Source: an uncultured Eubacteriales bacterium
GTDB taxonomy: Bacteria; Bacillota; Clostridia; Oscillospirales; CAG-272
DNA length: 64,000 nt
NCBI GenBank assembly: GCA_900546635.1
Contig: URDS01000003.1
Coordinates: 252-64,251, forward strand
Reading direction: 5' to 3'
Positions 11,839 to 43,475 of the stretch are shown one piece after another. The translations under genes and the position numbers were made by a program. Position 1 is the stretch's first letter. Each line of letters begins with the position of its first letter. The notes under the pieces are model-generated. The model was given only the letters and a program-made list of their open reading frames with translations. It was not told where the DNA came from and searched no databases.

Positions 11839-12206
11839 CGAGACGCGGCAAAGCGCACGGTTTGGGCTTTTTCGATCGTTTTTTAGTTGACCGCCTGTCG
11901 GCGCGCGGCCGGACGCAAAAGCCGCGGCGCGGGGATTGTGCGGCAATGTGCGAAACAGCGGCGCGTGTTTTGCGTGAAACAGCGCGGCACATACCCCGCT
12001 TTTCATCTGGCCGTGTATTCGGCTATGCGGGGGCTGCCCGGTTTGCGTGTGCATTAAGGTCTTCCACGGAACGCGCCTCCGAATGCTTGGCGCGCTTTGC
12101 GGAATGTGCCGGGGACGAATGCGAAAAAAGGGAAGCGCGGGTCGCCGGTTTTGCCGGCGATTTTGATGTTTCGGATGGACAAATTCGAGCATGGAGGTGT
12201 CGGACT

Positions 12207-13289: not shown

Positions 13290-13395
13290 CGCGGCGGCGC
13301 AAAGTCTTTTCGCCGCCGTGTTTGGAAAAACGGAAAACAGATCAAAAGATCCGCGTGAAAATTTTTTCACGCGGATCGCTGTCAAAAGAGTAAAA

Positions 13396-13486
13396 ATCGC
13401 AAATAAAATAAATATGTTTCCAAGGCGGACAAGTGCCGCCTTGGAAACACCTTACAGGCGCCCTCCTTGTTTTGGTTTTCCGACGG
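13396..13486. repeat. Dispersed structured repeat, copy A (short form)
   Basis: ATCGCAAATAAAATAAATATGTTTCCAAGGCGGACAAGTGCCGCCTTGGAAACACCTTACAGGCG... The 13-bp-stem hairpin lies at 13416-13448. Confidence 0.8.
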
Positions 13487-13549
13487 TTAAAGCCGCGTGA
13501 AAGAATTTTCACGCGGCTTTGTCTGTCAAAATATAGATTTCAGCGCATT

Positions 13550-14295: not shown

Positions 14296-14506
14296 AACGC
14301 TCTGCTTTTGCCGCGCTGTGAAAGCATCCGGTCTTTTGGTGCAAAGGGACCGGCCGGCTAAGCGGATTCGGGGATTGTTTTTTCTATCTTCGTATAGATC
14401 GCTCTGTCTTGCAAACGGATTTTGAATCTATAGTATGCCCCGTTCTATTTATATTATCAACCGTTTGCGCCAAAAAGGGGCGTTTCGGTCTTTATCCGTT
14501 AAAAAA

Positions 14507-14738
14507 TCAAAGTTTTTTGGCGATGAGGCGTACATTGGCGCCCCCCGCGGGGGCGTATTTTTGCCGCGCGCCGTTCTCGGCGGCGCTCGCGCGCCTGTAA
14601 GGTGTTTCCAAGGCGGCGCATGTCCGCCTTTTTCCGCCGCAAAACTAAGGTTTTGCGACGATAGGGCGCGTTCGCTCGCGCCGTCGCGCCGCCAATGGCG
14701 GCGCTGGCCGCCTTGTAAACGTATTTGATTTGCGATTT
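14507..14738. repeat. Dispersed structured repeat, copy B (reverse orientation, composite of more than one unit)
   Basis: Contains CCTGTAAGGTGTTTCCAAGGCGGCGCATGTCCGCC, CGCAAAACTAAGGTTTTGCG, GGGCGCGTTCGCTCGCGCCGTCGCGCC and the terminal GCCGCCTTGTAAACGTATTTGATTTGCGA. Confidence 0.8.
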
Positions 14739-14897
14739 TCACTTTTTTGACAGACTGCGGAGACGTTTCGTCTCCGTTTTTTTTATTTCATCGAAATACA
14801 GAAATTTCTGAACTTGCCGAAAAATCCCGGATCGCGCATGGATAATAAAAAGTGCGGCGGGGGACCGCCGAAATGCTTTGAAAAGGAGGAAGCCGAT

Positions 14898-15305: not shown

Positions 15306-16633
15306 GCGAAGTGTACCTCCCCGATGTCGTCGGCGGCGGGTACGGTGCGTTTTGGCGCACGCGCGCCCGGTACCGGGTGGTCAAGGGCTCGCGCGCGTCC
15401 AAAAAAAGCAAAACGGCGGCGCTCTGGTATATCTACCATCTGATGCGCCATCCGGAGGCCAATCTCTTAGTCGTGCGGCGGACCTACCGGACGCTGGAAC
15501 GCTCGGCGTTTGCCGAACTGAAGTGGGCGATTTCACGTTTCGGGGCGGAAAAGCTCTTTGAGGCCAAAACCGCGCCGCTGGAAATCACGCTCAAATCGAC
15601 TGGTCAGAAAATTTTTTTCGCGGGGCTGGACGATCCGCTGAAGCTTACTTCCATGACCGTTTCGCGCGGCGTGCTCTGCTGGATGTGGATCGAGGAAGCT
15701 TTTGAGATCGACTCGGAGGAAGCGTTTGACACGCTCGACGAATCCATTCGCGGAGAGGTGCCGCCCGGCCTTTTCAAGCAGATAACGCTCACCTTTAACC
15801 CATGGAGCGACTCGCACTGGTTAAAGCGCCGCTTCTTTGACCGTCACGCCCCCGATATTTTCGCCATGACCGTCAATTACAAGGTTAACGAATGGCTGGA
15901 CGCGGCGGATTTACGGGTCTTTGAGGAAATGCGCCTGCGCGACCCCGAACGATACCGCGTTTGCGGACTGGGAGAATGGGGCGTCGGCGGCGGGCAGTTT
16001 TTCTCGGAGTTCCGGCACGACGTGCATGTCGCAGAACCCGGTCCGCTGCCCGCCGGGGCGCGGATCTACCGGAGCATTGACTACGGTTTGGACGCGCTGG
16101 CCTGTTTGTTTGTCGCGGTGGACTCGGCCGGGCGGGCGCTGGTCTTTCGCGAGGTGTACGCGCACGATCTGATCGTTTCCGAGGCGGCGGAGGCGATTCA
16201 AAACGCCTCTGCGGATTTAGACGTGTACTGCACCTTTGCGCCGCCCGACCTCTGGTCGCGCCAAAAGGACAGCGGCAAGAGCATCGCGACGCTCTTTGCG
16301 CGCGGGGGCGTGCCGCTGTCCTGCTCGGACAACAGCCGGGTAGGCGGCTGGCTTGCGCTCAAGGAGTGGCTGAAAATTCAGCGCGCCCCCGACGGCGGCG
16401 AGGACGCGCGGATGAAGATTTTTTCAACCTGCGAAAATCTGATTCGCTGCCTGCCCTCGCTTGTGGGCGACAAAAAGCGCGTCGGCGACTGCGAGACCGA
16501 GCCGCACGAGATCACGCATCTGCCGGACGCGCTCCGCTATTTCGCGGTGATGCAGACAAGCGCGCCGCGCGCGCAGCGCACGGTGAGCGTCCGGGATTTC
16601 ACGGGGCGCGGAAGCCGGGGCAAGCGGTTTTGA
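15302..16633 (+). CDS. Phage terminase large subunit
   Basis: 443 aa with a GTG start. Walker-A-like VVKGSRASKKSKT, then RRTYRTLERSAFAELKWAI, a LWIEEA-type Walker B (MWIEEAFE), and a C-terminal nuclease region (IDYGLD...). Confidence 0.88.
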   Translation: MSEVYLPDVVGGGYGAFWRTRARYRVVKGSRASKKSKTAALWYIYHLMRHPEANLLVVRRTYRTLERSAFAELKWAISRFGAEKLFEAKTAPLEITLKSTGQKIFFAGLDDPLKLTSMTVSRGVLCWMWIEEAFEIDSEEAFDTLDESIRGEVPPGLFKQITLTFNPWSDSHWLKRRFFDRHAPDIFAMTVNYKVNEWLDAADLRVFEEMRLRDPERYRVCGLGEWGVGGGQFFSEFRHDVHVAEPGPLPAGARIYRSIDYGLDALACLFVAVDSAGRALVFREVYAHDLIVSEAAEAIQNASADLDVYCTFAPPDLWSRQKDSGKSIATLFARGGVPLSCSDNSRVGGWLALKEWLKIQRAPDGGEDARMKIFSTCENLIRCLPSLVGDKKRVGDCETEPHEITHLPDALRYFAVMQTSAPRAQRTVSVRDFTGRGSRGKRF

Positions 16634-16919
16634 CTCTGGCGGGCGTTTTCAGCCGTGTTTGCGGCTTCGCCCCGCCCAAACCGGAATTGCCGCCCTGCCC
16701 GAACCGCACCCCGCCGCGAAACCGCGGATCCCCGCGCCGAAAAAGCCGGCGCGCAGCGCGAAAGACAACTTGACCGTCGTGCGGTCTGGGATTTCCGCGT
16801 TGAAAACGCCGCGCGCAGCGCGAAAGAAAACCCGGCAGCGCGCAGCCTGCCAAAATCCCGCGGCGGCGGGGCAAAATCGCCGCCGCCGCGGGCAAGTCCG
16901 ATAAAGGAGAAAAAACAAT

Positions 16920-17099
16920 ATGAAACAAATCACGGCAAAGCCGGCAAGGCATATCTGCTCGGTGGCCTCGTGCAGAAACACCGACTGCTTCCGCGTCTCG
17001 GGCAGTCCCAATCTGCTCGGCGGCTTTTACATCTGCGCCGACTGCGCGGGGCAGATCTACAAGCTGACCCGGCCGAAAAAGGCGGCAAAGCATGACTGA
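16920..17099 (+). CDS. Small Cys-rich (zinc-ribbon-like) protein, 59 aa; absent from the ORF track
   Basis: ATG 16920 after AAAGGAGAAAAAACAAT. Translation: MKQITAKPARHICSVASCRNTDCFRVSGSPNLLGGFYICADCAGQIYKLTRPKKAAKHD. C-x4-C ... C-x2-C spacing. Confidence 0.5.
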   Translation: MKQITAKPARHICSVASCRNTDCFRVSGSPNLLGGFYICADCAGQIYKLTRPKKAAKHD

Positions 17100-17286
17100 G
17101 GTGCTCGGACTTGCGTTTTGCGCCGCCGTACTTTTGCTGGAGGCGCTTCACCGCCGGGAGCGCGCCGCGCTTCTTTCCCGCCTTGACGGGGCGCGGCCGG
17201 CAAAAAAAGCAAAGCTGATGCATGCATCGGCGCACAGACGGGCGCTTGCGCGCCAGAGAGGAGGGGACGGCCATGAGTCTGTTTAA
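17092..17286 (+). CDS. Small hypothetical protein (64 aa, N-terminal hydrophobic helix)
   Basis: ATGA overlap with the previous ORF. It overlaps the portal start by 14 nt, a translational-coupling layout. Composition is weakly informative. Confidence 0.35.
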   Translation: MTEVLGLAFCAAVLLLEALHRRERAALLSRLDGARPAKKAKLMHASAHRRALARQRGGDGHESV

Positions 17287-19150
17287 ATTCAAAGAAAAAA
17301 CCAAGCCGCGGGGCGAGTACAAGGAAGACATTCTCGCCATGATCGACGCCGAGTGCCGCCGCCGTCACACGGAGCGCAGGCCGCTTGAGCTTCGCTGGAT
17401 GCTTTCGTCCAATTTTTACGCGGGGCACCAGTACTGCGACATCAATCCGTACGGCAGCGAGCTTGAGGACTACGCGCCCCCCTACGACTATATGGAGCGC
17501 GGAATCTACAACCGCATCGCGCCGCTGATCGACACGCGCATCGCCAATTTCAAGGCGCTCGATTTTTCGATGGAGGTCAGCCCCGCGACAAGCGAGCTTG
17601 CGGATTATGAAAAAAGTCTGATCGCCACGAGACTTCTCCGCCAGACGCAGTATAAATGCGATTTCCTTTCCAAAAAGGATTCCATGATTCTGTGGAGCGA
17701 GCTCTGCGGCACGGCCTTTCTGCTTTCGTGGTGGGACAAAAGCAAGGGGGACGCCTGCCGCGTCGGGGATGAGATTCTGCCGATGGGCGATCTGGATTTC
17801 GGCGTGCTCACGCCCTATGAGGTCCTGCCTGAGAGCATTTACAAGGAAAACCTCGCCGACCAGACTTCCGTGATTCTTGAACAGGTGGTGAGCGTTTCCG
17901 AGGTGGACAGGCGGTACGGCGTGCGGGTAAAGCCTGCGCAGGTCGATTCGTATGCGCTCGGCGTTTCGCCGGGCAGCGGCGGCTTCGGCTACACGGGCGC
18001 GACTTTTTCCATCGCCTACCGCAAGCCCGAAAATTCCACCTACGTGCGCACTTACATGGAAAAACCGAACGCGCGCTATCCCTCCGGGCGCATGATTATC
18101 GCGACGCCCGACCGCATTTTGTATTACGGGACGCTGCCGATCGACGAGTACCCGCTGGTTATGCTGCGCTGCAAAAACGCGGCCGGGATGTTCTTCGGGC
18201 GCTCGGTCATTGAGGATCTGATTCCGCTTCAGCGCGCGTACAACGGCGTGAAGAACAAGATTCACGACTACATCCGCACGCTGGCGCTCAACCCGCTGCT
18301 TGTGCCGGAGGGCGCGGTTGAGGACATGGAGGAGCTTGCGCAGAACGGAGTCGCGCCCGGCGACATTGTTGAGTACAACCCCGACCGCGGCGAGCCGAAG
18401 CCGCTTGCGAGCGCGGATTTCCCAAGCAGTGTGTTTGAAGAGTGTCAAAATCTGGCAAGTGAGATGGAATACGCCGCCGGACTTTCGCATCTGGGCGCGA
18501 CCGGCAACCAATCTTCCGCCCTGACCAGCGCGAGCGCGATCGAGCGCCTGCGCGAGATCGACGGCATCCGGCTTGCGCTGACGGCCGACTTGATCCGCGC
18601 CGCGGTGTTGCGCGCCGGTAAAATCTGGCTGAAGCTCTACAAGGCGCACGGAAGCTTTACGCATATCGAGCGGCTGACCGGCGCAAACGACCGGTCGGCG
18701 ATGCTTGTCTGGTGCGGCGAGGATATCAATTCCTACGACATCGTGTTTGAAAGCGAAAACACGCTGCTGCACAGCGACGAAAGCCAGATCGAAGCGATCC
18801 GCAGCGGAATCGCGCTCGGCCTCTTCGAGGACGAAACGGGCAGGATCCCGCGCGGCGTGAAGAAAAAGCTGCTCTGCCGGATGCACATCGGCGACTTTGT
18901 GCGCACGCTCTACGAAGACGATCTGCAAAGCGCGGCGGCGCGGCGGGAAAACGGCGAACTGCTTTCGGGCGCGCCGCTTGCGACCGGCGCGTGCGACGAC
19001 CATGAGATTCACATAGCCGAGCACCGGCGCGCCGCGCTGGAGTATTCCTATTATAAGATGAAGCAGCGCGATCCCCGGCGCGCGCAGGCGCTGGAGGACC
19101 ATATCGCCGAGCATGTAAAAATTTTCAAGGAGAAGAAGGAAAATGGATAA
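17273..19150 (+). CDS. Phage portal protein
   Basis: 625 aa from ATG 17273 (RBS GAGGAGGGGA). Its size, its position after terL, and its sequence character (RWMLSSNFYAGHQY..., acidic C-terminus) fit a portal. Confidence 0.8.
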   Translation: MSLFKFKEKTKPRGEYKEDILAMIDAECRRRHTERRPLELRWMLSSNFYAGHQYCDINPYGSELEDYAPPYDYMERGIYNRIAPLIDTRIANFKALDFSMEVSPATSELADYEKSLIATRLLRQTQYKCDFLSKKDSMILWSELCGTAFLLSWWDKSKGDACRVGDEILPMGDLDFGVLTPYEVLPESIYKENLADQTSVILEQVVSVSEVDRRYGVRVKPAQVDSYALGVSPGSGGFGYTGATFSIAYRKPENSTYVRTYMEKPNARYPSGRMIIATPDRILYYGTLPIDEYPLVMLRCKNAAGMFFGRSVIEDLIPLQRAYNGVKNKIHDYIRTLALNPLLVPEGAVEDMEELAQNGVAPGDIVEYNPDRGEPKPLASADFPSSVFEECQNLASEMEYAAGLSHLGATGNQSSALTSASAIERLREIDGIRLALTADLIRAAVLRAGKIWLKLYKAHGSFTHIERLTGANDRSAMLVWCGEDINSYDIVFESENTLLHSDESQIEAIRSGIALGLFEDETGRIPRGVKKKLLCRMHIGDFVRTLYEDDLQSAAARRENGELLSGAPLATGACDDHEIHIAEHRRAALEYSYYKMKQRDPRRAQALEDHIAEHVKIFKEKKENG

Positions 19151-19691
19151 TCGTGAATTTCCGGCGCTCGACTTCGCAGCGCTTGCCGCTCTGCCGGAGG
19201 ACGAACGCGCCGGCGCGCTCGCGGACTATGAAACGGCGGTGCGCGCCTATGCCGAGGACACCGGAAGGTCGGACGCGGCGGATGAACTCCGGCGCGCGCG
19301 CTACGAGGCGGCAAAGTACAAGATGGCGGCGGACGCAAGCTTTGCGGACTTCGGCGGGCGCATGGAGGCTGTCGAGCGCATTCTGGCCGAAACGCCCGCG
19401 CTCGACGCGCTCCCGGACGAGGAAAAGCTCCGCATGGCCTACTATATCGACCGCGGGATGCAAAAGAGCGCCGAACCGACCGCAGAAGAGCTTCTCGCGG
19501 CTGTTCGCCGCTCGCCCGAAGTGATGCGGACGCTTGAAGCGTCCTTCGCGGCCGCGCTCACGGCCAAAGACGAACCGGCGCTTTTTGCCAGCGCGGGCAA
19601 TTTCAGTATGCCCGCGACCGTGCGTGAAAAACCCAAAACCATAGGCGAGGCCTCCGCGCTTGCGCGCGAGGCGCTCGGACTAAAATCGTAA
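19143..19691 (+). CDS. Putative scaffolding protein
   Basis: 182 aa, helical and Ala/Glu/Arg-rich, lying between portal and capsid. Overlaps the portal stop. Confidence 0.55.
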   Translation: MDNREFPALDFAALAALPEDERAGALADYETAVRAYAEDTGRSDAADELRRARYEAAKYKMAADASFADFGGRMEAVERILAETPALDALPDEEKLRMAYYIDRGMQKSAEPTAEELLAAVRRSPEVMRTLEASFAAALTAKDEPALFASAGNFSMPATVREKPKTIGEASALAREALGLKS

Positions 19692-19704
19692 AGGAGAAAA
19701 AACA

Positions 19705-20922
19705 ATGGCACAAATTTTGACAAAGGTGGAAGCGATTCTCAAGGACAAGTATCAGCCCGCGCTCTGCAATCAGATCAACACGGAGCCCTCGCCCTTTCTG
19801 GAACGCATCAAAAAGGTCCCGCTGAAAAACAACACCATCAAGTGCGCCGCGCCTATAGGCATCAACGGCGGCTTCGGCTTTGGCGCGGAGGGCGTCGGCA
19901 CGCCCAAGGCGGGCGCGCAGCGCTATGCCTGCTTCGAGCTTGACGCGGTTGACATGTATGTCGATCTGCAGATTTCCAACAAGACCGTCGAACTGGCCAG
20001 CAGCAACGCCTCGTCCATGATTAACGCGCTGGACGGCGAGATTCGCGGTTCGTATGCGGCCGCGAAATGGAACATCGGCCGCGCGCTCTTCGGGGACGGC
20101 AGCGGCAAGCTGGCCGCCGTCAGCGCGGCGAGCGCGGCGAGCGGCGTGACCACGCTCACGCTTGACAGTGTGAAAAACGTGATCGAGGGACTGCGGATCG
20201 ACCTGTACAACACGCCGTCCACAGGCGACCCGACGCTGACCGACGCCAATTCGGGCAAGCGCATCATTTCGGTTGACCGCGCCGCAAAGAAGATCACGGT
20301 AGACGGCACGCTCACGCTCGGCGCAACCGGCGGATTCATCACCGTGCAGGGCAGCTACAACCGCGAGCTTTGCGGTCTCGGCGCCATCTTCACGGGCAGC
20401 AGCATCTACGGGCTTTCCAAGACCGACAATCCCTGGCTTGCGCCGACCGTCGTGGACGCGAAAAACGATCTGACCGATCTTGTGCTCTACCGCGGCGTCA
20501 AGCAGGCTAAGGATTACAAGGGCGCGTCTATCGACCTCATTATGATGGGCGACGACGCTTTCCTGGCTTACCAGGACTACATCCACACCAACAACATCAC
20601 CGTAGCCGACAAATATCAGTTTATCGGCGGCGCGGTCGGATACAAGGTGCTGGTCGGTTCCAGCGAGGTCGTGATCGTCAACGAGCGCTTCGTTCCCGAC
20701 GGGGAGGCCTGGGGCGTGGATACCTCCACGTTCTACCTTGAGGCGACGCCCTGGAACTTCATGGAAAAGGACGGCGGCATCTTCGTGCCGATGCCCGACA
20801 CCTCGATTTTCCGCGCGCTGCTTGCCTCTTATGGCAACCTGATGTGCGAAAATCCGGGCGGCGTGGTTCGCTTTACAAACGCGGGCGCCGCGGCTTCGAC
20901 GAGTAGTGGTTCGGGAACCTAA
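19705..20922 (+). CDS. Putative major capsid protein
   Basis: 405 aa with a strong RBS (AAAGGAGAAAAAACA). The position and the Gly/Ala-rich beta-type composition fit a capsid, and a hairpin follows at 20935-20960. Confidence 0.7.
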   Translation: MAQILTKVEAILKDKYQPALCNQINTEPSPFLERIKKVPLKNNTIKCAAPIGINGGFGFGAEGVGTPKAGAQRYACFELDAVDMYVDLQISNKTVELASSNASSMINALDGEIRGSYAAAKWNIGRALFGDGSGKLAAVSAASAASGVTTLTLDSVKNVIEGLRIDLYNTPSTGDPTLTDANSGKRIISVDRAAKKITVDGTLTLGATGGFITVQGSYNRELCGLGAIFTGSSIYGLSKTDNPWLAPTVVDAKNDLTDLVLYRGVKQAKDYKGASIDLIMMGDDAFLAYQDYIHTNNITVADKYQFIGGAVGYKVLVGSSEVVIVNERFVPDGEAWGVDTSTFYLEATPWNFMEKDGGIFVPMPDTSIFRALLASYGNLMCENPGGVVRFTNAGAAASTSSGSGT

Positions 20923-21004
20923 AGGAAAGCCGAACGGCTGAAGCCCGAGGGCTTCAGCCGCAGAACAATCCGTCCCGGAAACGGAACGGCGGATTCTATA
21001 AGGA

Positions 21005-21175
21005 GTTTACAAGGCGGACATGCGCCGCTTTGTAAACACCTTACGGGCACGCGAGCGCCGACCGTAGGAGGCGCGACGACGCGAGTGAACGTGCCCCATC
21101 GTCGCAAAACCTTGGTTTTGCGGCGGATTAAGGCGGCGCATGTCCGCCTTGTAAACATAGTTTATTTGTAAATTT
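21005..21175. repeat. Dispersed structured repeat, copy C (full-length, ~170 bp, with terminal inverted repeats)
   Basis: Left end GTTTACAAGGCGGACATGCGCCGCTTTGTAAAC. Core ACCTTACGGGCACGCGAGCGCCGACCGTAGGAGGCGCGACGACGCGAGTGAACGTGCCCCATCGTCGCAAAACCTTGGTTTTGCGGCGG. Right end AAGGCGGCGCATGTCCGCCTTGTAAACATAGTTTATTTGTAAAT. Confidence 0.85.
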
Positions 21176-21229
21176 TTACTGTACAGGGGGCGGTGCGCCG
21201 TCCCCTGTTTTCAAAAACGGGAGGATCGT

Positions 21230-21571
21230 ATGGATCTGAAAAAATTATACGGCGACTGCACGGTGCTGTGCGGCAGTGAACCGCCGCTCTACACATTTTT
21301 CGTGCATCTGGATATGGGGGTGCGCGCGCTGCTTGCGCGCTATCCGAAAAAGCTGCTTTTTTCGGAGGGGGAATACGCGCCGCCCGAAACGCTGTCGGAC
21401 GAGCTTGGGCTGCGCGAGGAATTTTATCTGCCGCTGCTCTGTTTTGTGGCATGCAGAAACGGCGGGGACAAGGCGCTTGACAAAACCTTTTCGGAGAGCG
21501 CCGAGGCGGCCTATCTCGGTCTTTGGCGCAAGCAGGCGCGTTCGCTGCGCAGAAAGGGGGATGTTTGGTAA
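21230..21571 (+). CDS. Hypothetical phage protein (113 aa), possible head completion/adaptor
   Basis: GGGAGGA RBS upstream. TAATG overlap with the next gene. Role inferred from position only. Confidence 0.5.
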   Translation: MDLKKLYGDCTVLCGSEPPLYTFFVHLDMGVRALLARYPKKLLFSEGEYAPPETLSDELGLREEFYLPLLCFVACRNGGDKALDKTFSESAEAAYLGLWRKQARSLRRKGDVW

Positions 21572-22137
21572 TGTTTTCGGCTGATATAACGGTAGGGGAA
21601 CTGCTTTCACAGGTGCAAAATGCATTTTTGCCGGCGCTGGAGATTCCACAGGCGTATCTGCTCTGCGAATACAACGCGCTGCTCCGCGCGCTCTATCTTT
21701 CGCTGCCGGGCGGGGATGAGACCCAAAAAATTGAGGCTGCGGACGGGCTTTTGCCCATTTTGGGCTCCCCGGCGCGCGTACGCCGCGTCTTTTTCGGCGA
21801 CCGAGAACTGCTTCGCGGCTCGCCCGCGCTGCTTGACGTTCTGCCCGACTATCCGCTGTTTTGCCCCGTGTCGGGCGGACTGCGGGTTCCCTATGACGGG
21901 GAATATACACTGCTTTTGCGTTCGCTGCCCGCGGCGCTCACGTCCGCGGAGGCGGCCACGTGCGCGGTCATGCTCGAAAACGAGGATGTTCCGATGATGC
22001 GCGCCTATCTGTTTCACCGCGCCTATCTGTATGCGGCGGACGGCGCGTGCGCCAATCTCTACGGCGCGGAATACAACCGTTTGCTGGAGGAGTTCCGGCG
22101 TGTGAGGGGAGTGCTCCGATGCGCGGACGAAGATTAA
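21571..22137 (+). CDS. Hypothetical phage protein (188 aa)
   Basis: Start at ATG 21571, coupled to the upstream stop. No recognisable motif. Confidence 0.5.
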   Translation: MFSADITVGELLSQVQNAFLPALEIPQAYLLCEYNALLRALYLSLPGGDETQKIEAADGLLPILGSPARVRRVFFGDRELLRGSPALLDVLPDYPLFCPVSGGLRVPYDGEYTLLLRSLPAALTSAEAATCAVMLENEDVPMMRAYLFHRAYLYAADGACANLYGAEYNRLLEEFRRVRGVLRCADED

Positions 22138-24008
22138 ATACCGAAAAGTTGCCCGCCACAGCGCGCAAAATTCTGGAAATCACCGACTTTTCGGGACTTT
22201 GCGACCGCGGCGCCGAGACCGGGAGTCTGCTCCTCGCCGACGGGATCCGCGTGCTGTCCGAGGGCGCGCTCGCCTCAATTCTCGGCAGTGTGCAGGTGAG
22301 CGTCGGGCAGAGCACGCTGCACCCCGGTGTATATACGCTCTATGACTGCTATGACAGCGTATATGAAACGCCGGTGAATACGGATTTTATCTATCGCAAC
22401 ATCTGTCCGGAGGATGTCATGGCCTATTCCGAAACCGAGACGGCGGCCTCCCGCGTACTGGTCGGGGAGAATTTGCTGCCCGGAAAGACCGCGGACGGCT
22501 ACCGCAATCTGCTCGGCGCGTACGCGGACGATAAGGCGTTTTACATTTTCTACGACGCGGTGCTCAACATCATCGATCATCGGCGAACCGATTCTTTTGA
22601 GTCGGTCGGAAGCGGCATCGTCGTGCAGTTTGAAAACCTCAAATCGACGACCTCCACCTACGCCTATACCGTGCACCAGCTTTGGCTGGACATGGTTACG
22701 CCGCGCACAGGCACGGTCGTATCCAAAATGATCGGCGCGGAGCGGACGCAGTTGTTTTCGGTGCCGGTAAGCCGCGAGCGGGCGACGCTTGTGTCGGAGG
22801 ACAGGCAGACCTATCGCTATGTTTCCTCCGCGTATACGCCCGATCTCGGCGCCGTCTATATTCCCCGCCCGGACACGCTGTATACCGACGATTACGCGGA
22901 ACTCGGCGAGAGGCGTCCCGAATACGAGACCTACGTCGAGGGAATGACGGTTGCGCACTACCGGAAGTATCTGACGGCCATCGGCGGCACGCCGGTGGGC
23001 GGGCGCGACTATGTGTTGGTTCTGCCGACGATGCAGATTTTAACGGTGAGCGGCGGGAGCATTTCGGTAGAGGCGCCGAGGAACGATATGCCACCGATGG
23101 AGCAAGCCGTACAGCATTTCGGGCGGCTTTTCGGTATTTTCGGAACCGAGATCTACGCTTCGAGAAACGGCGACTGCACCGACTTTACGCTGCCCGCGCC
23201 CGGAAGCACGGATGCGTCGGCCGCCTGGACGGCGACGACCGCGGGCAGGGAGGGCGCGTTTACCGCGCTTGCTTCTTTTGACGGCAAAATCGTGGCGTTC
23301 ACCGAAAAATCCATGCTGACCGTGGAGGGAAGCGAGCTTCCGTTTTCGCTTTCCTATGTGGGCGCGCACGGCTGCCGGTCGCAGTCGGCGCTGGCCGCAT
23401 GCGGGTCGTATCTCTATTTCGTCTCGGACGCGGGCGTGATGCGGTACAACGGCACCTCGGTGAAGTCGATTTCAAGCGACCTTTTGCCCGATTCGCTTGC
23501 GGATGCGTCGCTTTGCGCGACCGACGGGACGCTGCTGCTTTGTCTGCCGCTGTCCAAAACGATCTATATGTACGATTTGGCAAGCGAGATATGGAGCAGC
23601 CGGCGCGAGCACGAGGCGGAGATGCGTCTCTTCGGCGCGGGAAACATGGCCGCGCTCGTGTTAGAGCAAGGGCAGGGACAGCAGCTTCGGCTTGTAAACG
23701 GCGGCGCGGCGCAGTATGCGTTTGCGTTGCTTTTGGATTTTCCGCAGCGGCGGCGCATTTACAGAATTTCGCTCACTGCCGAGCTTGAAGCGGGCACGAC
23801 GCTCTCGGTTTCGGGCGCGGACGGGGATGCGATGTTCTCGACCACAGGGACGGACGGAAAGGTTCGCGCCTATTCGTTTGTGCCCCAAAATCTATATATG
23901 GAAAGCGGCGTTTTGCGCTTTTTCGGCGTGGGGCGCATCAAGCTTCACACACTGCGGCTGGAATACGCCGAGGTTGAAAACACATTTGGGAGGTATGGCA
24001 TATGCTGA
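22119..24008 (+). CDS. Large virion structural protein (629 aa), putative short-tail/nozzle or beta-propeller-like component
   Basis: ATG 22119 overlaps the upstream gene. The C-terminal half has repeated beta-strand patterns (GKIVAFTEKSMLTVEG, GSYLYFVSDAGVMRYNG, DGTLLLCLPLSKTIYMYD). Confidence 0.5.
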   Translation: MRGRRLNTEKLPATARKILEITDFSGLCDRGAETGSLLLADGIRVLSEGALASILGSVQVSVGQSTLHPGVYTLYDCYDSVYETPVNTDFIYRNICPEDVMAYSETETAASRVLVGENLLPGKTADGYRNLLGAYADDKAFYIFYDAVLNIIDHRRTDSFESVGSGIVVQFENLKSTTSTYAYTVHQLWLDMVTPRTGTVVSKMIGAERTQLFSVPVSRERATLVSEDRQTYRYVSSAYTPDLGAVYIPRPDTLYTDDYAELGERRPEYETYVEGMTVAHYRKYLTAIGGTPVGGRDYVLVLPTMQILTVSGGSISVEAPRNDMPPMEQAVQHFGRLFGIFGTEIYASRNGDCTDFTLPAPGSTDASAAWTATTAGREGAFTALASFDGKIVAFTEKSMLTVEGSELPFSLSYVGAHGCRSQSALAACGSYLYFVSDAGVMRYNGTSVKSISSDLLPDSLADASLCATDGTLLLCLPLSKTIYMYDLASEIWSSRREHEAEMRLFGAGNMAALVLEQGQGQQLRLVNGGAAQYAFALLLDFPQRRRIYRISLTAELEAGTTLSVSGADGDAMFSTTGTDGKVRAYSFVPQNLYMESGVLRFFGVGRIKLHTLRLEYAEVENTFGRYGIC

Positions 24009-25072
24009 TTAATATAAAGGCGGACGGCTGCCGTCTGTTTGCCGACCAGCCGGTGATTGCCAGCGGGTCGGTCGGGACGGTGAATGTGCGGTTTTGCTTG
24101 GATCCGCTGTGGGCGGATTATCAAAAGAGCGCGGTTTTCCGCGCCGGCGGCAAAAAATACACGATGCTTTTGACGGGCGACACCTGCGCGTTTCCGCAGG
24201 AGGCGCTGCAAAGGAGCGGCGAGGTGCATCTCGGCCTTGTGGGTGTTTGGGGCGGCAAAACGCTGACCAGCACCATGTGCCGCCTTGTGGTTTCGCCCGG
24301 CGCGCCGAAAAACGGGCAGGAGAGCGAAAATTATACGCCCGGACTGTATGAGCAGTTCGCGGCAAAATTTTCAAAATTCGAGAACATGACGGCGACCGCC
24401 GTGCAGGGCACCGAAACAAAGGTCAGCGTGACCACGGACGATACGGCCATGCGGCTGGATTTCACGCTGCAAAAGGGCGAGACGGGCGCGCAGGGCGCGC
24501 AGGGCGAGGCCGGCGGTTATTATACCCCGTCTGTTGACAGCGCGGGCAACCTGAGTTGGAGCGCGAGCAAATCCGGTATGCCGAGTGTCGGCGGCGCCTA
24601 TATCCGCGGCGAAAAGGGAGACGCCTTTACCTACGCGGACTTCACCGAGGAACAACTCGCGGCGCTGAAAGGCCCGAAAGGGGACACCGGCGCGAAAGGC
24701 GATACAGGCGCGGCCGGAGCGCCGGGCGCGGCGGCGGGCTTTGGTACGCCGACGGCGACGGTAAACGCAAACACGGGTACGCCGAGCGTCACCGTGACGG
24801 CCAGCGGCGCGGATACCGCAAAGGTGTTCAGCTTCGCGTTCGAAAACTTAAAAGGCGAAAAGGGCGATCCGGGAAGCGTTGAAAATATACCCGCCGCATC
24901 CGCCACGGCGGCGGGCGTTATCAAAATCGGAAGCGGGCTGAAAATCGACGCAGGCGGCACTGCGAGCGTGGACACGGTAAGCGCCGTCACGCAAAACAGC
25001 ACAAAGCCTATCACGTCCGGCGCGGTGTACGCGGCTATAGGGAACGTCGAGTCCCTGCTCGCGGCAATATAG
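24002..25072 (+). CDS. Tail fibre-like protein with collagen-like G-X-Y stretches
   Basis: GETGAQGAQGEAG, GPKGDTGAKGDTGAAGAPGAAAG and GEKGDPG triplet runs. 7-nt overlap with the upstream gene. Confidence 0.65.
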   Translation: MLINIKADGCRLFADQPVIASGSVGTVNVRFCLDPLWADYQKSAVFRAGGKKYTMLLTGDTCAFPQEALQRSGEVHLGLVGVWGGKTLTSTMCRLVVSPGAPKNGQESENYTPGLYEQFAAKFSKFENMTATAVQGTETKVSVTTDDTAMRLDFTLQKGETGAQGAQGEAGGYYTPSVDSAGNLSWSASKSGMPSVGGAYIRGEKGDAFTYADFTEEQLAALKGPKGDTGAKGDTGAAGAPGAAAGFGTPTATVNANTGTPSVTVTASGADTAKVFSFAFENLKGEKGDPGSVENIPAASATAAGVIKIGSGLKIDAGGTASVDTVSAVTQNSTKPITSGAVYAAIGNVESLLAAI

Positions 25073-25082
25073 GAGGGGCGGT

Positions 25083-25631
25083 ATGAGTATTGCAACGCAA
25101 ATCACACGGCTGAAAAATGCGAAAACCGCGCTTGCCTCCGCGCTGTCGGGCAAGGGCATAACTGTTCCGTCCGCGACAAAGCTTGACGGCTACGCGGCGC
25201 TGCTGAGCGGCGCCGCCGCCGTGGTCAACGTATCGGGCGACACGGTAACGGCCGACAAGCTGGCAAAGGGCTACACCGCGCACAACGCGGCGGGCACGCA
25301 AATCACGGGAACGATGGAAGCGGGCGGCGAGACCGCGACGCTGACGGTAGACAATGGCACAAGCTCGGCCATATCGGCTAAACTATACAATTTCGACGGT
25401 ACGGAGACCGCGCTTTCCTTCCCGAGCGGAACCTCCTCCCATACCGTGCCGAAATACGCATTTATCGAAGTCGATTCCGGCGGTTGTTACGCGGAATCTT
25501 ATACGGGGTGCAAAGCTTATTCCTCTGTGTCGCAGTATAACCCCGACATTGGCGATTTTGAACTGTATTTCGCCGGTTTGCTGGTTACGGCTTCTCAGGC
25601 AACTGTAAGTATATCTTACAATTATGTATAA
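25083..25631 (+). CDS. Hypothetical tail/fibre-associated protein (182 aa)
   Basis: GGAGGGG RBS. The N-terminus MSIATQITRLKNAKTALASALSGKGITVPS resembles fibre/assembly proteins. Position supports this. Confidence 0.45.
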   Translation: MSIATQITRLKNAKTALASALSGKGITVPSATKLDGYAALLSGAAAVVNVSGDTVTADKLAKGYTAHNAAGTQITGTMEAGGETATLTVDNGTSSAISAKLYNFDGTETALSFPSGTSSHTVPKYAFIEVDSGGCYAESYTGCKAYSSVSQYNPDIGDFELYFAGLLVTASQATVSISYNYV

Positions 25632-25674
25632 GCAATGTGCGAGCGAACGGTATACATACAGGAGGTGAATCAAA

Positions 25675-25908
25675 ATGACCTGGGAAATCATACTCGGCAT
25701 CATTACGCTTGTCGGCTTCGGCCTCTCGGTAATCACGCCGATTATCAAGCTCAATTCGAGCATAACCAAACTGAACTGCTCGATTGACAGCTTAAATCAG
25801 AACATGGCGCGCAACGAAGCGCGCATCACGCATCACGGCGAGCAGCTTGACAACCACGAGCACCGGCTTACTGTGCTGGAGGCGAAGGAGAAAGGAGACA
25901 AGGGATGA
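25675..25908 (+). CDS. Small membrane protein, N-terminal TM plus coiled coil (lysis accessory or holin-like)
   Basis: 77 aa. TM segment WEIILGIITLVGFGLSVITPII is followed by a heptad-like region. AGGAGGTGA RBS. Confidence 0.55.
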   Translation: MTWEIILGIITLVGFGLSVITPIIKLNSSITKLNCSIDSLNQNMARNEARITHHGEQLDNHEHRLTVLEAKEKGDKG

Positions 25909-26477
25909 TTATACCGTTTGAAACGGAGCAGGTAAAACTGACCTCCCCTTACGGGGAACGAACCTTAAACGGGCAGACGAATTTTCATACCGGATACGAC
26001 CTTGTGGGCGTCGGTTCAAAGAACGTGACGGCGGTTGAGAGCGGCACGGTCGTGCGTTCCCGAATCGTGACCGACAAGCAGAATCTCACATGGCAGTGGG
26101 GCAATTATGTTTGTGTGAAAACGGCGGCCGGACAGTACCATTATTACTGTCATTTGGACTCGCGCGCGGTGCGCGAGGGGCAGAATGTGAAAGCCGGCGA
26201 AAAGCTCGGCGTGATGGGGAACACGGGCTATTCGTTCGGTGCGCATCTGCATTTTGAGGTGCGGCGCGCGGACGGAAAAACGAAAGTCAATCCGGAGGAA
26301 GTGCTGCAAATTCCGAACGCGGTCGGCACATACGCGCGCATGTCGCTGAGCGCGGCGGTGGATGCGCTGCAAGCGCGCGGCGTGCTGTCAAGTCCGGAGT
26401 ATTGGAAGAAAAACGCGGAAAAACTGCAATATCTGCCCGATCTGATCCGCAACATGGCGGAGGCGCTTGCGCGATGA
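25905..26477 (+). CDS. M23-family peptidase endolysin
   Basis: HTGYDL ... GNTGYSFGAHLHFEVR (the HxxxD and HxH zinc motifs of M23). C-terminal ~50 aa contain the motif GVLSSPEYWKKNAEKLQYLPDLIRNMAEAL. Confidence 0.82.
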   Translation: MIIPFETEQVKLTSPYGERTLNGQTNFHTGYDLVGVGSKNVTAVESGTVVRSRIVTDKQNLTWQWGNYVCVKTAAGQYHYYCHLDSRAVREGQNVKAGEKLGVMGNTGYSFGAHLHFEVRRADGKTKVNPEEVLQIPNAVGTYARMSLSAAVDALQARGVLSSPEYWKKNAEKLQYLPDLIRNMAEALAR

Positions 26478-26725
26478 GGGAATTTTCAAAATGCGTGATC
26501 GCGCTTTTGATCGGCGCATGGTTTTTGTGCGCGCTGCTCGGCATCGCGGTCGTCCTCGTGCAGCTTGTGCGCGGGGACTGCGCCGTGAATCTGTCGGATC
26601 TTTTGCTGTATATCGGCGCGCCGATGACCGGCGGCATTGTGAGCTATATGCTCAAAAGCGCCTATGAGAACAAAGAGAAAATAAAGGGCGGCCATACGGA
26701 GCCGCCCCAGATTGATGAGGTGTGA
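26474..26725 (+). CDS. Two-TM small membrane protein (holin-like)
   Basis: ATGA overlap with the endolysin stop. TM segments VIALLIGAWFLCALLGIAVVLV and LLLYIGAPMTGGIVSYML. Confidence 0.55.
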   Translation: MREFSKCVIALLIGAWFLCALLGIAVVLVQLVRGDCAVNLSDLLLYIGAPMTGGIVSYMLKSAYENKEKIKGGHTEPPQIDEV

Positions 26726-26728
26726 GCA

Positions 26729-26935
26729 ATGAAAGAGCTTTTAAGAAAAGTGGGCAGCCGGAAATTTCTGGTGGCGGTGACGGGCGTCGTGAGCGGCATT
26801 GTGCTGATTGTCGGCGGCAATGTGACCGAGGGGGTGACGGCGGTTGTCGCCTCCGTGGTGGCGTATCTTGCGGCGGAGGGCATTGTGGATATGGCCGCCG
26901 TCAAAAAAGCGATCTGCGAGCAGGAAGAAAAATAA
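26729..26935 (+). CDS. Phage holin (LL-H-like small holin)
   Basis: 68 aa. SRKFLVAVTGVVSGIVLIVGG ... AVVASVVAYLAAEGIVD, with a charged C-terminus. Confidence 0.65.
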   Translation: MKELLRKVGSRKFLVAVTGVVSGIVLIVGGNVTEGVTAVVASVVAYLAAEGIVDMAAVKKAICEQEEK

Positions 26936-26973
26936 ACCGCCCGCCGCGTCGTAAGACGTTGGGTTATACAAAA

Positions 26974-27000
26974 GGCAGCCGCTTCCAGCGGCTGCCTTTT
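26974..27000 (+). terminator. Rho-independent terminator closing the lysis module
   Basis: GGCAGCCGC ttcca GCGGCTGCC followed by TTTT. Confidence 0.7.
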
Positions 27001-27002
27001 GA

Positions 27003-27385
27003 GCGTCGAAAAACCAAGGTTTTGCGGCGATGGGGCGTATTCTCGCGCCGTCGACGGCGGCACTCGCACGCCTGTAAGGTGTTTACAAGGCGGCACATGT
27101 CCGCCTTTTTCCGCCGCAAAACCTTGGTTTTGCGGCGATGGGGCGCGTATAGGCGTGAGGAGGGGCATGAGGGGGTACCAGGCGTCAGCCTGGGGGAGTC
27201 CTGATGCCAAAAAGGAGGGGCCCTGCGCAGCCGGGAGGCGTCCTGACGCCAAAAAAGAGCCCCCTTTTCGGGCGGTATATTCGCGCCGTCGCGCCGCCGA
27301 CGGCGGCGCTCGCGTATCAGCGCGTTCGCTCGCGCCCCGATACGCAAGTGCAAAGCATACTTTATTGCAAAATTGCAAAGTTCGG
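27003..27385. repeat. Dispersed structured repeat, locus D (composite array of ~380 bp, several partial units)
   Basis: Contains AAAACCAAGGTTTTGCGGCG, CCTGTAAGGTGTTTACAAGGCGGCACATGTCCGCC, a second CGCAAAACCTTGGTTTTGCGGCG, GCGCCGTCGCGCCGCCGACGGCGGCGCTCGCG and a terminal TTTATTGCAAAATTGCAAAG. Confidence 0.75.
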
Positions 27386-33196: not shown

Positions 33197-33270
33197 CGCG
33201 GTTGCCGGTGTTTTGGCATGCATAATGCGTTTATCGGTTTTGTATGAAAAAGAGATATTGAATGAAGAGA

Positions 33271-33306
33271 AAACCGCTCTTGCCTGAAAGCAAGCGCGGT
33301 TTTTGG
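33271..33306 (+). terminator. Rho-independent terminator after the HAD gene
   Basis: AAACCGCTCTTGC ctgaa AGCAAGCGCGGTTTTT. Confidence 0.6.
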
Positions 33307-33325
33307 TTTGTTGATAAAGATAAGA

Positions 33326-33486
33326 ATTGCAAATAAAATAAATACGTTTACAAGTCGGCCATGCGCCGCCTTGTAAACACCTTACGGGCGCGCGAGCGCC
33401 GACCGTAGGAGGCGCGACGGCGCGAGCGAACGCGCCCTATCGTCGCAAAACCAAGGTTTTGCGGCGGAAAAAGTCGGCCACGCGCT
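33326..33486. repeat. Dispersed structured repeat, copy E (forward orientation, right end truncated)
   Basis: ATTGCAAATAAAATAAATACGTTTACAAGTCGGCCATGCGCCGCCTTGTAAACACCTTACGGGCGCGCGAGCGCCGACCGTAGGAGGCGCGACGGCGCGAGCGAACGCGCCCTATCGTCGCAAAACCAAGGTTTTGCGGCGG. Confidence 0.85.
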
Positions 33487-43301: not shown

Positions 43302-43364
43302 GAAGCGGCGTCCATTCCCAAACCGTCCGAACCCGAAGCTTGCCAAAGCGAAACTTACATAGAT

Positions 43365-43417
43365 TCAAGGCGGCGCAGCCGCCTTTGGGCCAACCGGGAA
43401 AACCAAGGTTTTCCGAC
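43365..43417. repeat. Dispersed structured repeat, copy F (short form)
   Basis: TCAAGGCGGCGCAGCCGCCTTTGGG...GGGAAAACCAAGGTTTTCCGACGG. Confidence 0.6.
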
Positions 43418-43475
43418 GGCTGCATTGAATTTCTGCACAGGCGCCGGCAGATTGCCGGAGCGGAGGTGATTTTCC

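What the first reader, a model, noticed from the sequence alone, without database searches (positions are those of the whole stretch)
21005..21175. Structured ~170-bp dispersed repeat with terminal inverted repeats (MITE/REP-like), six loci in this window
The same element recurs at 13396-13486, 14507-14738, 21005-21175, 27003-27385, 33326-33486 and 43365-43417, in both orientations and always between genes. The full copy here has three parts. (i) A 13-bp-stem hairpin GTTTACAAGGCGG-n7-CCGCCTTGTAAAC. (ii) A GC-rich core GGGCGCGCGAGCGCCGACCGTAGGAGGCGCGACGGCGCGAGCGAACGCGCCC that can fold on itself. (iii) The small hairpin CGCAAAACC-AA-GGTTTTGCG, followed by an inverted copy of the first hairpin. 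Outer ends carry an AT-rich terminal motif (TCGCAAATAAAATAAATA / TTTATTTGTAAAT in inverted orientation). Short forms keep the hairpins and delete the core. I cannot place it in any named RNA or repeat family from memory. It could be a non-autonomous transposable element, a REP-type element or a structured RNA.
Basis: seen in the sequence. Interest (0 to 1): 0.65.

Follow-up and report, generated by a model that had tools for sequence, protein, structure and literature searches.

The report
Terminator-hopping miniature transposon (IS1182-type MITE)
The repeat is a small gene-less jumping element that borrows the enzyme of IS1182-type insertion sequences, lands on transcription-terminator hairpins and copies the whole hairpin to both of its sides; this is a known kind of element, and the unusual part is its conserved folded core.

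Summary
All six loci are copies of one modular repeat with about 200 loci (1% of the 2.18-Mb assembly), and a third of all contig ends stop inside it. The canonical element is about 165 nt: a 16-nt end (TCAGTCTGTCAAAAAA), an AT-rich spacer, hairpin A, GC-rich core B and hairpin C, which holds the other end. The flagged copy at 21005-21186 is a rearranged, atypical one. The left end is identical (16/16) to the end of a 1539-bp IS1182-family insertion sequence in the same genome, now a pseudogene, and matches the end consensus of full-length relatives across Clostridia. Single-unit copies carry the same host hairpin (19-33 nt, a different sequence at each site) on both sides. Four orthologous sites in a sister species have one hairpin and no element. 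Twenty-nine of 59 full-length relatives show the same whole-hairpin duplication. This is therefore an IS1182-type MITE. It is not a REP/RAYT element and matches no Rfam family. The hairpins covary strongly. The A-B core also recurs in several other families of the order, inside elements with the same ends, and its role is unexplained.

The parts
13348..13377 (.). Left copy of the host hairpin at locus 1 (GATCCGCGTGAAAATTTTTTCACGCGGATC).
   Evidence: Read. It abuts the element end. Its partner at 13490-13519 has the same stem and differs by 3 bases in the loop.
13378..13489 (+). Short-form MITE: end repeat (GCTGTCAAAAGAG), AT-rich spacer, hairpin A (13416-13448), a stub of core B, and a degenerate hairpin C with the right end (..CCGACGGTTA).
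   Evidence: nhmmer hit 13379-13461, E=6e-18; sequence read.
13490..13519 (.). Right copy of the host hairpin at locus 1 (AAGCCGCGTGAAAGAATTTTCACGCGGCTT).
   Evidence: It is a diverged target duplication of 13348-13377.
14489..14757 (-). Two-unit MITE array on the minus strand: end repeat and spacer (14757-14722), A, the 3' half of B, C, then a second A, a B and a degenerate C.
   Evidence: nhmmer hits 14758-14633 (E=9e-32) and 14630-14490 (E=4e-21); sequence read.
14758..14776 (.). Host hairpin CGGAGACGTTTCGTCTCCG followed by a T-run, abutting the left end of the locus-2 element. No matching copy lies on the far side.
21005..21128 (+). The flagged copy, first part: hairpin A (21005-21037), core B (21038-21096) and hairpin C (21099-21128). 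It has no end repeat on this side.
   Evidence: nhmmer hit 20998-21132, E=2e-37. A same-species metagenome contig (L011) is identical here.
21130..21186 (-). The flagged copy, second part: an inverted hairpin A with the loop flipped, then an inverted AT-rich spacer and a degenerate element end (..TTTTTACTGTACAG).
   Evidence: Inverted pair I18, 27 nt, 96% complementary; nhmmer minus-strand hit 21181-21130.
21184..21207 (.). Host terminator-like hairpin CAGGGGGCGGTGCGCCGTCCCCTG followed by TTTTC, abutting the inverted end.
26970..27000 (.). Host terminator hairpin AAAAGGCAGCCGCTTCCAGCGGCTGCCTTTT, abutting the right end of the locus-4 element.
27001..27380 (-). Two-unit long-form array on the minus strand. 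Unit 2 (27001-27107) is A-B-C plus the right end. Unit 1 carries the extra D module (about 27140-27270) inside B and has a degenerate AT-rich left end next to the stop codon of the gene at 27390-28730.
   Evidence: nhmmer hits 27107-26995, 27148-27110 and 27315-27270. The D module occurs at the same position in about 25 loci genome-wide.
33270..33304 (.). Host bidirectional terminator hairpin AAAACCGCTCTTGCCTGAAAGCAAGCGCGGTTTTT. The sister species G008 has a single copy at this site.
33305..33467 (+). Near-canonical MITE of the variant-2 left-end subfamily: end repeat GGTTTGTTGATAAAG, AT-rich spacer, hairpin A (33346-33378), core B (33379-33437) and hairpin C (33438-33467). It is absent from the orthologous site in G008. 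Two same-species strains carry an extra 122-nt D module here.
   Evidence: nhmmer hit 33301-33473, E=3e-46; G008 comparison; strain variants L014 and L016.
33468..33485 (+). A half of hairpin A (AAAAAGTCGGCCACGCGC), a remnant of a further unit. It is also present in G008, so it predates the unit at 33305-33467.
43367..43419 (+). Degenerate remnant in the 43301-43476 intergenic gap: an A-like hairpin (AAGGCGGCGCAGCCGCCTTT) and a C-like hairpin (CCGGGAAAACCAAGGTTTTCCGACGG), with no recognisable ends.
   Evidence: blastn locus C3:43606-43676; gene calls.

Best explanation
[quoted passage not shown] It has no gene of its own. It keeps the 16-nt terminal repeats (TCAGTCTGTCAAAAAA at one end, TCTGACCGTCGAAAAA in reverse complement at the other) that an IS1182-family DDE transposase, supplied from elsewhere, recognises. 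That much is shown. The target is a DNA hairpin or palindrome of any sequence, in practice mostly intrinsic terminators. The likely mechanism is inferred from the model in PMC5678879: the two element ends are joined at the two outer feet of the palindrome on opposite strands, and gap repair then copies the whole hairpin onto both sides. The length of the duplication (19-33 nt here) is therefore set by the hairpin and not by the enzyme. Both neighbouring genes keep a terminator, so insertions should be nearly harmless, which fits the high copy number. Later events produce the variety of forms seen in the window. These are tandem duplication of the A-B-C unit, inversion between the palindromic A hairpins, gain or loss of a D module, and truncation. 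The internal hairpins A, B and C are under selection for pairing. I infer, without a test, that they act in cis as DNA structures that help the transposase or a host factor.
For: Ends: the MITE left end is identical (16/16) to the left end of a 1539-bp element at C2:8358-9896 of the same genome. That element encodes an IS1182-family transposase (NF033551, 370 bits against a 270-bit cut-off; DUF772 + DDE_Tnp_1_6), now broken by three in-frame stops. Full-length relatives (49-89% aa identity) in Clostridia share the end TCAGACTGTC(A/G)AAAAA.
Hairpin duplication by the MITE: about 23 of 41 near-full copies carry the adjacent site-specific hairpin on both sides. The mean alignment score is 15.3 against 6.7 for mismatched left/right pairs, whose maximum is 15.
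Hairpin duplication by the full-length IS: 29 of 59 copies have perfect or near-perfect direct hairpin repeats of 17-35 bp (median 24) abutting both ends. This includes all 7 listed copies in Chakrabartyella piscis and all 4 in a complete Christensenellaceae genome.
Empty sites: four orthologous sites in sister species G008 (89-95% identical flanks) hold one hairpin and no element where G000 has hairpin-MITE-hairpin.
Targeting: 47% of loci lie between convergent genes against 12% of all intergenic gaps. Only 3 of 128 internal loci overlap a called gene. There is no orientation bias relative to the flanking genes.
A solo IS end and a MITE sit at the same hairpin on contig C100.
Copy number: about 200 loci, and 72 of 220 contig ends fall inside the element.
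Against: No intact transposase with exactly matching ends is present in this assembly. The matching IS is a pseudogene, and the intact IS1182-family copy (C1:84690-86252) has ends that agree at only about 12 of 17 positions. Only G000, plus a remnant in G017, of the 20 genomes held for the genus has such a gene.
The right end of the MITE matches the IS end less well, about 11 of 16 positions.
The interior (A, B, C) has no similarity to any of the 80 IS relatives, so its origin is unknown.
Some MITE and IS copies have two different hairpins at their two sides. I attribute most of these to mis-joined contigs, because left and right hairpins pair up across contig ends, but recombination or another insertion pathway is not excluded.
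The strand-transfer geometry is inferred from insertion products and was not observed.
Confidence: 0.9

Rival explanations
1. The element is chiefly a gene for a small structured RNA (A-B-C) that spreads by riding in a MITE. The left end plus the AT-rich spacer would serve as its promoter, and the duplicated host terminator would end the transcript.
For: Stems covary strongly while loop and junction bases stay fixed (GGACATGYGCC, ACACCTTA, GCGAGTGCC..GGCGCGAGCGAAC), both within the genus and across several families of the order. A sigma-70-like site pointing inward (TTGATA, 17 nt, TAAAAT) lies in the left end at 33311-33339. A similar site occurs in 23 of 81 left ends, against 5.4 expected from shuffles and none on the other strand. 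One T.G wobble in B is conserved.
Against: The promoter-like site is confined to one subfamily, and the majority left end has none. The predicted start would fall inside the 5' arm of hairpin A. Apart from the one fixed T.G, G.T and A.C mismatches in the stems are equally frequent (67 against 56; 12 against 11 pairs), so neither strand is favoured as an RNA would require. There is no orientation bias relative to host transcription. No Rfam family matches. No transcript data could be obtained.
Confidence: 0.12
2. It is a REP/BIME-type palindromic repeat spread by a REP-associated tyrosine transposase (RAYT), or an IS200/IS605-type miniature element.
For: It has a modular mosaic of palindromes in both orientations, lies between genes and reaches high copy number. 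A Y1_Tnp fragment exists in the genome.
Against: The only Y1 transposase match is a truncated fragment with a stop codon (model positions 54-121). The element has terminal inverted repeats identical to those of a DDE-type IS. It creates target duplications. REP and IS200/IS605 elements have neither feature (established knowledge of those families).
Confidence: 0.02
3. It is a MITE mobilised by an IS30-family transposase of the IS1630 type, the other family reported to duplicate target hairpins.
For: The title of Calcutt et al. [quoted passage not shown] That is the same outcome as seen here.
Against: The single rve-domain gene in this genome is a two-ORF IS3-like element, not an IS30-like one. 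The MITE ends match IS1182-family ends exactly.
Confidence: 0.02

Closest known systems
IS1272 and its composite TnSha1 (IS1182 family, staphylococci)
   Same: They belong to the same transposase family as the partner IS found here (NF033551). They target DNA hairpins or terminators with no primary-sequence preference (PMC4923244, PMC5678879).
   Different: IS1272 and TnSha1 delete or replace the target hairpin and leave no duplication. This element and its full-length Clostridia relatives duplicate the whole hairpin. That is 'pathway b' in the PMC5678879 model, an outcome those authors did not find for IS1272. The element here is non-autonomous.
IS1630 of Mycoplasma fermentans (IS30 family; Calcutt et al. 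1999, PMC94219)
   Same: [quoted passage not shown] That is the same product as here.
   Different: It belongs to a different transposase family (IS30, with an rve-type catalytic domain), is autonomous and has different ends. No IS30-type gene is present in this genome. I did not read the paper itself, only its citation.
Modular bacterial intergenic repeats: BOX elements of Streptococcus pneumoniae, BIMEs of enterobacteria, Correia elements of Neisseria
   Same: They are short, non-coding, intergenic and high in copy number, are built from a few hairpin-forming modules in variable number, and are often found near gene ends (from my own knowledge).
   Different: They have no sequence similarity to this element, and BIMEs and Correia elements depend on other mobilising enzymes (from my own knowledge). 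None is known to duplicate a whole target hairpin. Here the mobilising family can be named from the ends.

Membership tests
MITE (non-autonomous derivative of an insertion sequence) | Short, with no coding capacity of its own | tested here: met
   Copies are 112-380 nt. Only 3 of 128 internal loci overlap a called gene by more than 40 nt.
MITE (non-autonomous derivative of an insertion sequence) | Terminal inverted repeats that match those of an autonomous IS | tested here: met
   The left end is identical (16/16) to the left end of the IS at C2:8358-9896. It matches the end consensus of the full-length relatives. The right end matches about 11 of 16 positions.
MITE (non-autonomous derivative of an insertion sequence) | Target-site duplication flanking each copy | tested here: met
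   Whole-hairpin direct repeats of 19-33 nt flank about 23 single-unit copies. Eighteen loci score at least 17 in the alignment test.
MITE (non-autonomous derivative of an insertion sequence) | Presence/absence polymorphism with intact empty sites | tested here: met
   There are four clean empty sites in sister species G008 and one in G017. Window locus 33305-33467 is absent in G008.
MITE (non-autonomous derivative of an insertion sequence) | A transposase supplied in trans that moves it | tested here: inconclusive
   The matching IS is a pseudogene with 3 in-frame stops. The intact IS1182-family gene on C1 has diverged ends. Intact relatives with matching ends exist in other Clostridia. Mobilisation was not assayed.
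IS1182 family (as the mobilising family) | DDE transposase matching NF033551, with DUF772 + DDE_Tnp_1_6 domains | tested here: met
   The partner IS copies score 440 and 370 bits against a 270-bit cut-off. The MITE itself encodes nothing.
IS1182 family (as the mobilising family) | Insertion at hairpin or palindromic targets | tested here: met
   Every examined end of the MITE and of the full-length relatives abuts a hairpin. The literature reports hairpin targeting for IS1272.
REP/BIME with a RAYT | An intact Y1 (HUH) REP-associated transposase in the genome | tested here: not met
   The only match is a truncated Y1_Tnp fragment with a stop codon at C11:28057-28257.
REP/BIME with a RAYT, and IS200/IS605 miniature elements | No terminal inverted repeats of DDE type and no target duplication | tested here: not met
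   Both features are present here.
IS30 family (IS1630-type) | An IS30-type transposase whose ends match the element | tested here: not met
   The single rve-domain gene is a two-ORF IS3-like element. The MITE ends match the IS1182 type.
Any Rfam RNA family | A covariance-model match at or near the gathering score | tested here: not met
   The window yields only two tRNAs at gathering score. The best match on the element at E<=10 is 20 bits against a 70-bit threshold.

The most novel reading that the evidence does not exclude
The A-B core would be a functional structured nucleic acid carried as cargo by IS1182-type MITEs, not inert filler. It has covarying stems around invariant bases (GGACATGYGCC, ACACCTTA, GCGAGTGCC..GGCGCGAGCGAAC). 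It is absent from every full-length IS examined. It recurs inside elements with the same ends in at least three families of the order. It could be a cis-acting DNA structure that recruits the transposase or a host protein and explains this MITE's success. It could instead be a small RNA with a role of its own.
Probability: 0.3. Interest if true: 0.6.

Novelty: new member of a known kind. Interest (0 to 1): 0.35.

Why it matters
For annotation, this one element explains about 1% of the genome, a third of the assembly's contig breaks and many 'structured RNA' false alarms in intergenic regions. Matching hairpins at contig ends can be used to join contigs. For transposon biology, the data give a clear natural record that one IS1182 subgroup duplicates whole target hairpins: 29 full-length copies, dozens of MITE copies and four empty sites. 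The IS1272 model predicted this outcome, but it was not found for IS1272. I found no paper describing IS1182-derived MITEs in the searchable literature, and a 2024 review of prokaryotic MITEs does not contain the term IS1182. The behaviour itself is on record for IS1630, and this scan has already noted it in many genomes. It is therefore a good example and not a new principle. The open point is the conserved, compensated A-B core.

Tried and rejected
1. Fuzzy-regex module scan of the whole genome: timed out. I replaced it with blastn-short and nhmmer.

Transcription is therefore untested.

3. Same-species metagenome contigs for empty sites at window loci 21005 and 33305: all were filled. They showed only a D-module polymorphism.

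4. RNAalifold on the raw profile alignment gave a poor consensus. I used the fold of the consensus, an unbiased scan of all column pairs, and then a hand-set structure tested with controls.

5. Search for an intact partner IS in the genus: none outside G000.

6. Similarity between the MITE interior and 80 IS relatives: none.

7. REP/RAYT, IS200/IS605 and IS30 partners: rejected.

8. Inward promoter as a general feature: rejected, since it occurs in only one subfamily.

9. Strand asymmetry of wobble pairs as a test for RNA: no asymmetry beyond one fixed pair.

10. 'Two different flanking hairpins' as evidence for a second insertion pathway: I did not adopt this, because left and right hairpins pair up across contig ends, which points to mis-joined contigs.

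Full report
**Observation.** The six stated loci are real copies of one repeat. This follows from the repeat finder families D7, D9, D10 and D13 and inverted pairs I1-I14 and from direct reading. The window is C3:252-64251 of a 2.18-Mb assembly in 110 contigs. Across that genome, blastn with the six copies finds 179 loci. An nhmmer profile built from 15 full copies finds 236 hits, 42 of them near full length. These merge into 200 loci, 21.6 kb or 0.99% of the assembly. Seventy-two of the 220 contig ends stop inside a copy, so the true locus count is somewhat lower and the assembly breaks at this repeat. Rfam finds only two tRNAs in the window and nothing meaningful on the element itself.

**Anatomy.** It has these parts, in order:
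- a left end, TCAGTCTGTCAAAAAA, or the variant AGCTTGTCGATAAAG
- an AT-rich spacer of about 21 nt, GTGAAAATCGCAAATCAAATAC
- hairpin A, GTTTACAAGGCGG-ACATGYG-CCGCCTTGTAAAC
- the 59-nt GC-rich core B
- hairpin C, CGTCGAAAAACC-TT-GGTTTTTCGACG, whose 3' arm runs into the right end ..CGACGGTCAGA

The right end is an imperfect inverted copy of the left end. Module strings show spacer-A-B-C as the commonest form. They also show head-to-tail A-B-C arrays of up to three units, short forms without B, and a long form. In the long form a D module of about 90-120 nt, with its own sub-repeats, sits at one fixed place inside B. About 25 loci have it.

**The flagged copy.** The copy at 21005-21186 is atypical. 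It is A-B-C with no end repeat on the left. An A hairpin with a flipped loop follows, then an inverted spacer and element end. This is most simply an inversion between two palindromic A hairpins followed by truncation. Its two inverted A hairpins are therefore not the family's terminal repeats.

**Flanks.** In single-unit copies, the sequence that directly abuts both ends is a hairpin of 19-33 nt. The hairpin differs from site to site, often has the form AAAA-stem-loop-stem-TTTT, and is present on both sides. Left/right alignment scores average 15.3, against 6.7 (maximum 15) for mismatched pairs. Most pairs have the loop in the same orientation, so they are direct repeats. Examples that are identical on both sides are C72:5443-5608, C12:7298-7467 and C5:9718-9889. 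A few pairs have the loop flipped, as can happen by inversion within a palindrome. A few copies have two different hairpins. However, a left-flank hairpin on one contig often matches a right-flank hairpin at the end of another contig, for example the left flank at C62:3180 and the right flank at C3:93. Mis-joins across the repeat therefore explain many such cases.

**Mobility.** I rebuilt putative empty sites (left flank, one hairpin, right flank) for ten loci with clear duplications and searched four genomes of the same genus. In the closest species, G008, four sites align without a break across the junction at 89-95% identity. Base-level alignment shows one hairpin in G008 where G000 has hairpin-element-hairpin: C12:7298, C72:5443, C14:14886 and C18:11208. 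The C14 site is also empty in G017. At C16:24009, G008 holds a different, short, inverted copy at the same hairpin, so that hairpin also carries a copy in G008, of a different form. For the window itself, the unit at 33305-33467 is missing from G008. G008 keeps a single copy of the hairpin at 33270-33304 and also has the A-half remnant found at 33468-33485. Two same-species metagenome strains carry a 122-nt D module at this locus that the window lacks.

**Partner.** A search with Pfam DDE_Tnp_1_6 finds two IS1182-type genes in this genome. Both match the NCBIfam IS1182 equivalog NF033551, at 440 and 370 bits against a cut-off of 270, and both have DUF772 + DDE_Tnp_1_6 domains.
- The copy at C2:8358-9896 (1539 bp) is in one reading frame with three in-frame stops. 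Its left end, TCAGTCTGTCAAAAAAA, is identical to the MITE left end over 16 of 16 bases. Its right end reads CAGTCTGTCAAAGAAC in reverse complement. It is flanked by two hairpins that differ only by compensated pairs and the loop.
- The intact copy at C1:84690-86252 has diverged ends, TCAGACTGAAGACAAAG.
- On contig C100, a solo end of the C1 type, a hairpin, a MITE and the same hairpin again lie in a row.

Within the 20 genomes held for the genus, only G000, plus a remnant in G017, has such a gene.

**Full-length relatives.** A scan of the genome collection with the C2 protein found 480 relatives and returned the best 80 loci, at 49-89% identity, in Clostridia MAGs and isolates. Nearly all the full-length elements examined (1.49-1.66 kb) end in TCAGACTGTC(A/G)AAAAA. 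Of 59 copies with both flanks available, 29 have perfect or near-perfect direct repeats abutting both ends. These repeats are 17-35 bp long (median 24), and each is a palindromic hairpin. They include all 7 listed copies in the complete Chakrabartyella piscis genome and all 4 in a complete Christensenellaceae genome. Whole-hairpin duplication is therefore a habit of this IS1182 subgroup, and the MITE inherits it.

**Alternatives for the enzyme.** The only Y1 transposase match is a truncated fragment. The only rve-domain gene is an IS3-like two-ORF element. The REP/RAYT, IS200/IS605 and IS30 explanations fail on these grounds.

**Context.** With a simple codon-usage gene caller, 3 of 128 internal loci overlap a gene. 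Forty-six of the 98 loci with genes called on both sides (47%) lie between convergent genes, against 12% of all intergenic gaps. In tandem-gene contexts the element points either way equally often: 11 against 10, and 10 against 9. This fits a DNA-level preference for bidirectional terminator hairpins. It argues against a strand-specific role in host transcripts.

**Structure.**
- Within G000 (63 units), hairpins A and C form 95% standard pairs, against 37-50% with shifted partners.
- An unbiased scan of all column pairs recovers a B stem, GGCGCG/CGCGCC, through a C-G to T-A swap in 13 copies.
- Across species the evidence is stronger. The stem of hairpin A is fully re-paired with a different sequence, for example GCATACAGAGCGG/CCGCTCTGTATGC in G017, while its loop ACATGYG stays fixed.
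- The outer stem of B becomes GGGGCG/CGCCCC, GGCTTGG/CCAAGCC, AGATTCG/CGAATCT or GGGTTCG/CGAACCC, while the inner sequence stays fixed.
- On a 21-sequence alignment, the hand-set structure gives 92.1% paired cells against 39-48% for slid partners. It has 28 of 41 pairs changed on both sides against 6-13, and no shuffle in 500 reaches the observed values.

**Distribution of the core.** A covariance model of A-B-C finds the core in 14 of 401 genomes sampled across the order, in 11 of 179 genera and several families. In G184, G373 and G114 the core again sits inside an element with IS1182-type ends and a duplicated hairpin. In G021, G364 and G402 it occurs in tandem arrays with a 183-nt period. 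The interior has no similarity to any of the 80 IS relatives.

**What the core does is open.** In favour of an RNA, there is a sigma-70-like site pointing inward at 33311-33339, and one T.G wobble is conserved. Four things count against an RNA:
- The promoter-like site is confined to one subfamily, 23 of 81 left ends.
- The predicted start would fall inside hairpin A.
- G.T and A.C mismatches are balanced: 67 against 56 cells, and 12 against 11 pairs.
- There is no orientation bias.

I favour a cis-acting DNA structure, but this is inference.

**Comparison with the literature.** IS1272 and TnSha1 (IS1182 family) target hairpins of no fixed sequence but delete or replace them (PMC4923244, PMC5678879). 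[quoted passage not shown] IS1630 (IS30 family) is reported, in the title of Calcutt et al. 1999 as cited in PMC7648426, to target and duplicate inverted repeats of variable length. I found no paper on IS1182-derived MITEs, and a 2024 review of prokaryotic MITEs does not contain the term IS1182. Earlier notes of this scan reached the same reading for other copies in this genome and for many other genomes. I treated them as leads and tested the claims here.

**Verdict.** This is an abundant, recently active IS1182-type MITE that duplicates terminator hairpins. It is a new member of a known kind. Its conserved structured core is unexplained and deserves a direct test.

Noticed in passing
window 14800-27000: The run of genes between the repeat copies at 13.4/14.7 kb and 27.0 kb is phage-like, with a P22-type portal at about 17222-19150. 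One element copy (21005-21186) sits inside it, between a 405-aa gene and a 113-aa gene. The copy is identical in a same-species metagenome contig.
   Followed up: partly
window 2345-2480: A tandem array of about 17 copies of an 8-nt unit (GCTATACG/GCTATGCG), preceded by four copies of a 29-nt repeat at 2161-2349.
   Followed up: no
window 6694-7037: About six tandem copies of a 51-52-nt GC-rich unit (..GCGGATTYGAGCGGRCGAGGCTGTTCCCGGCGGGG..).
   Followed up: no
window 11702-11833: Three tandem copies of a 44-nt unit at 82-100% identity, overlapping the start of the gene called at 11766-13289.
   Followed up: no
window 56411-59429 and 60923-63902: Two paralogous stretches about 4.5 kb apart at 73-82% identity (repeat families D2, D4, D5, D18). 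This looks like a tandem gene duplication.
   Followed up: no
G000 C2:8358-9896: A 1539-bp IS1182-family element whose transposase frame is intact apart from three nonsense codons (2 TGA, 1 TAG) and has no frameshift. One TGA aligns with a Trp in the intact paralogue on C1.
   Followed up: partly
L014:3830-3990 and L016:2390-2531 compared with window 33415-33440: Strains of the same species differ at one locus by the presence of the 122-nt D module inside core B. The module exchanges or inserts independently of the rest of the element.
   Followed up: partly
L153 (G402:C78:52535-52998) and G364:C35:49642-50105: In two other genomes of the order, and as a single hit in G021, the A-B core occurs in head-to-tail arrays with a 183-nt period. 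Each unit also carries a GGGGG/CCCCC hairpin and an AT-rich spacer. No IS-type ends were seen.
   Followed up: no
G000 contig ends, e.g. left flank at C62:3180 with right flank at C3:93; C27:21251 with C30:23953; C9:42415 with C9:74: Left- and right-flank hairpins of element halves match across contig ends. They could be used to order contigs, and they reveal likely mis-joins inside the repeat.
   Followed up: partly
L141 (G008:C6:4822-5316): The terminator hairpin hit in G000 at C16:24009-24175 also carries an element copy in the sister species. That copy is short (about 90 nt) and in the opposite orientation.
   Followed up: partly
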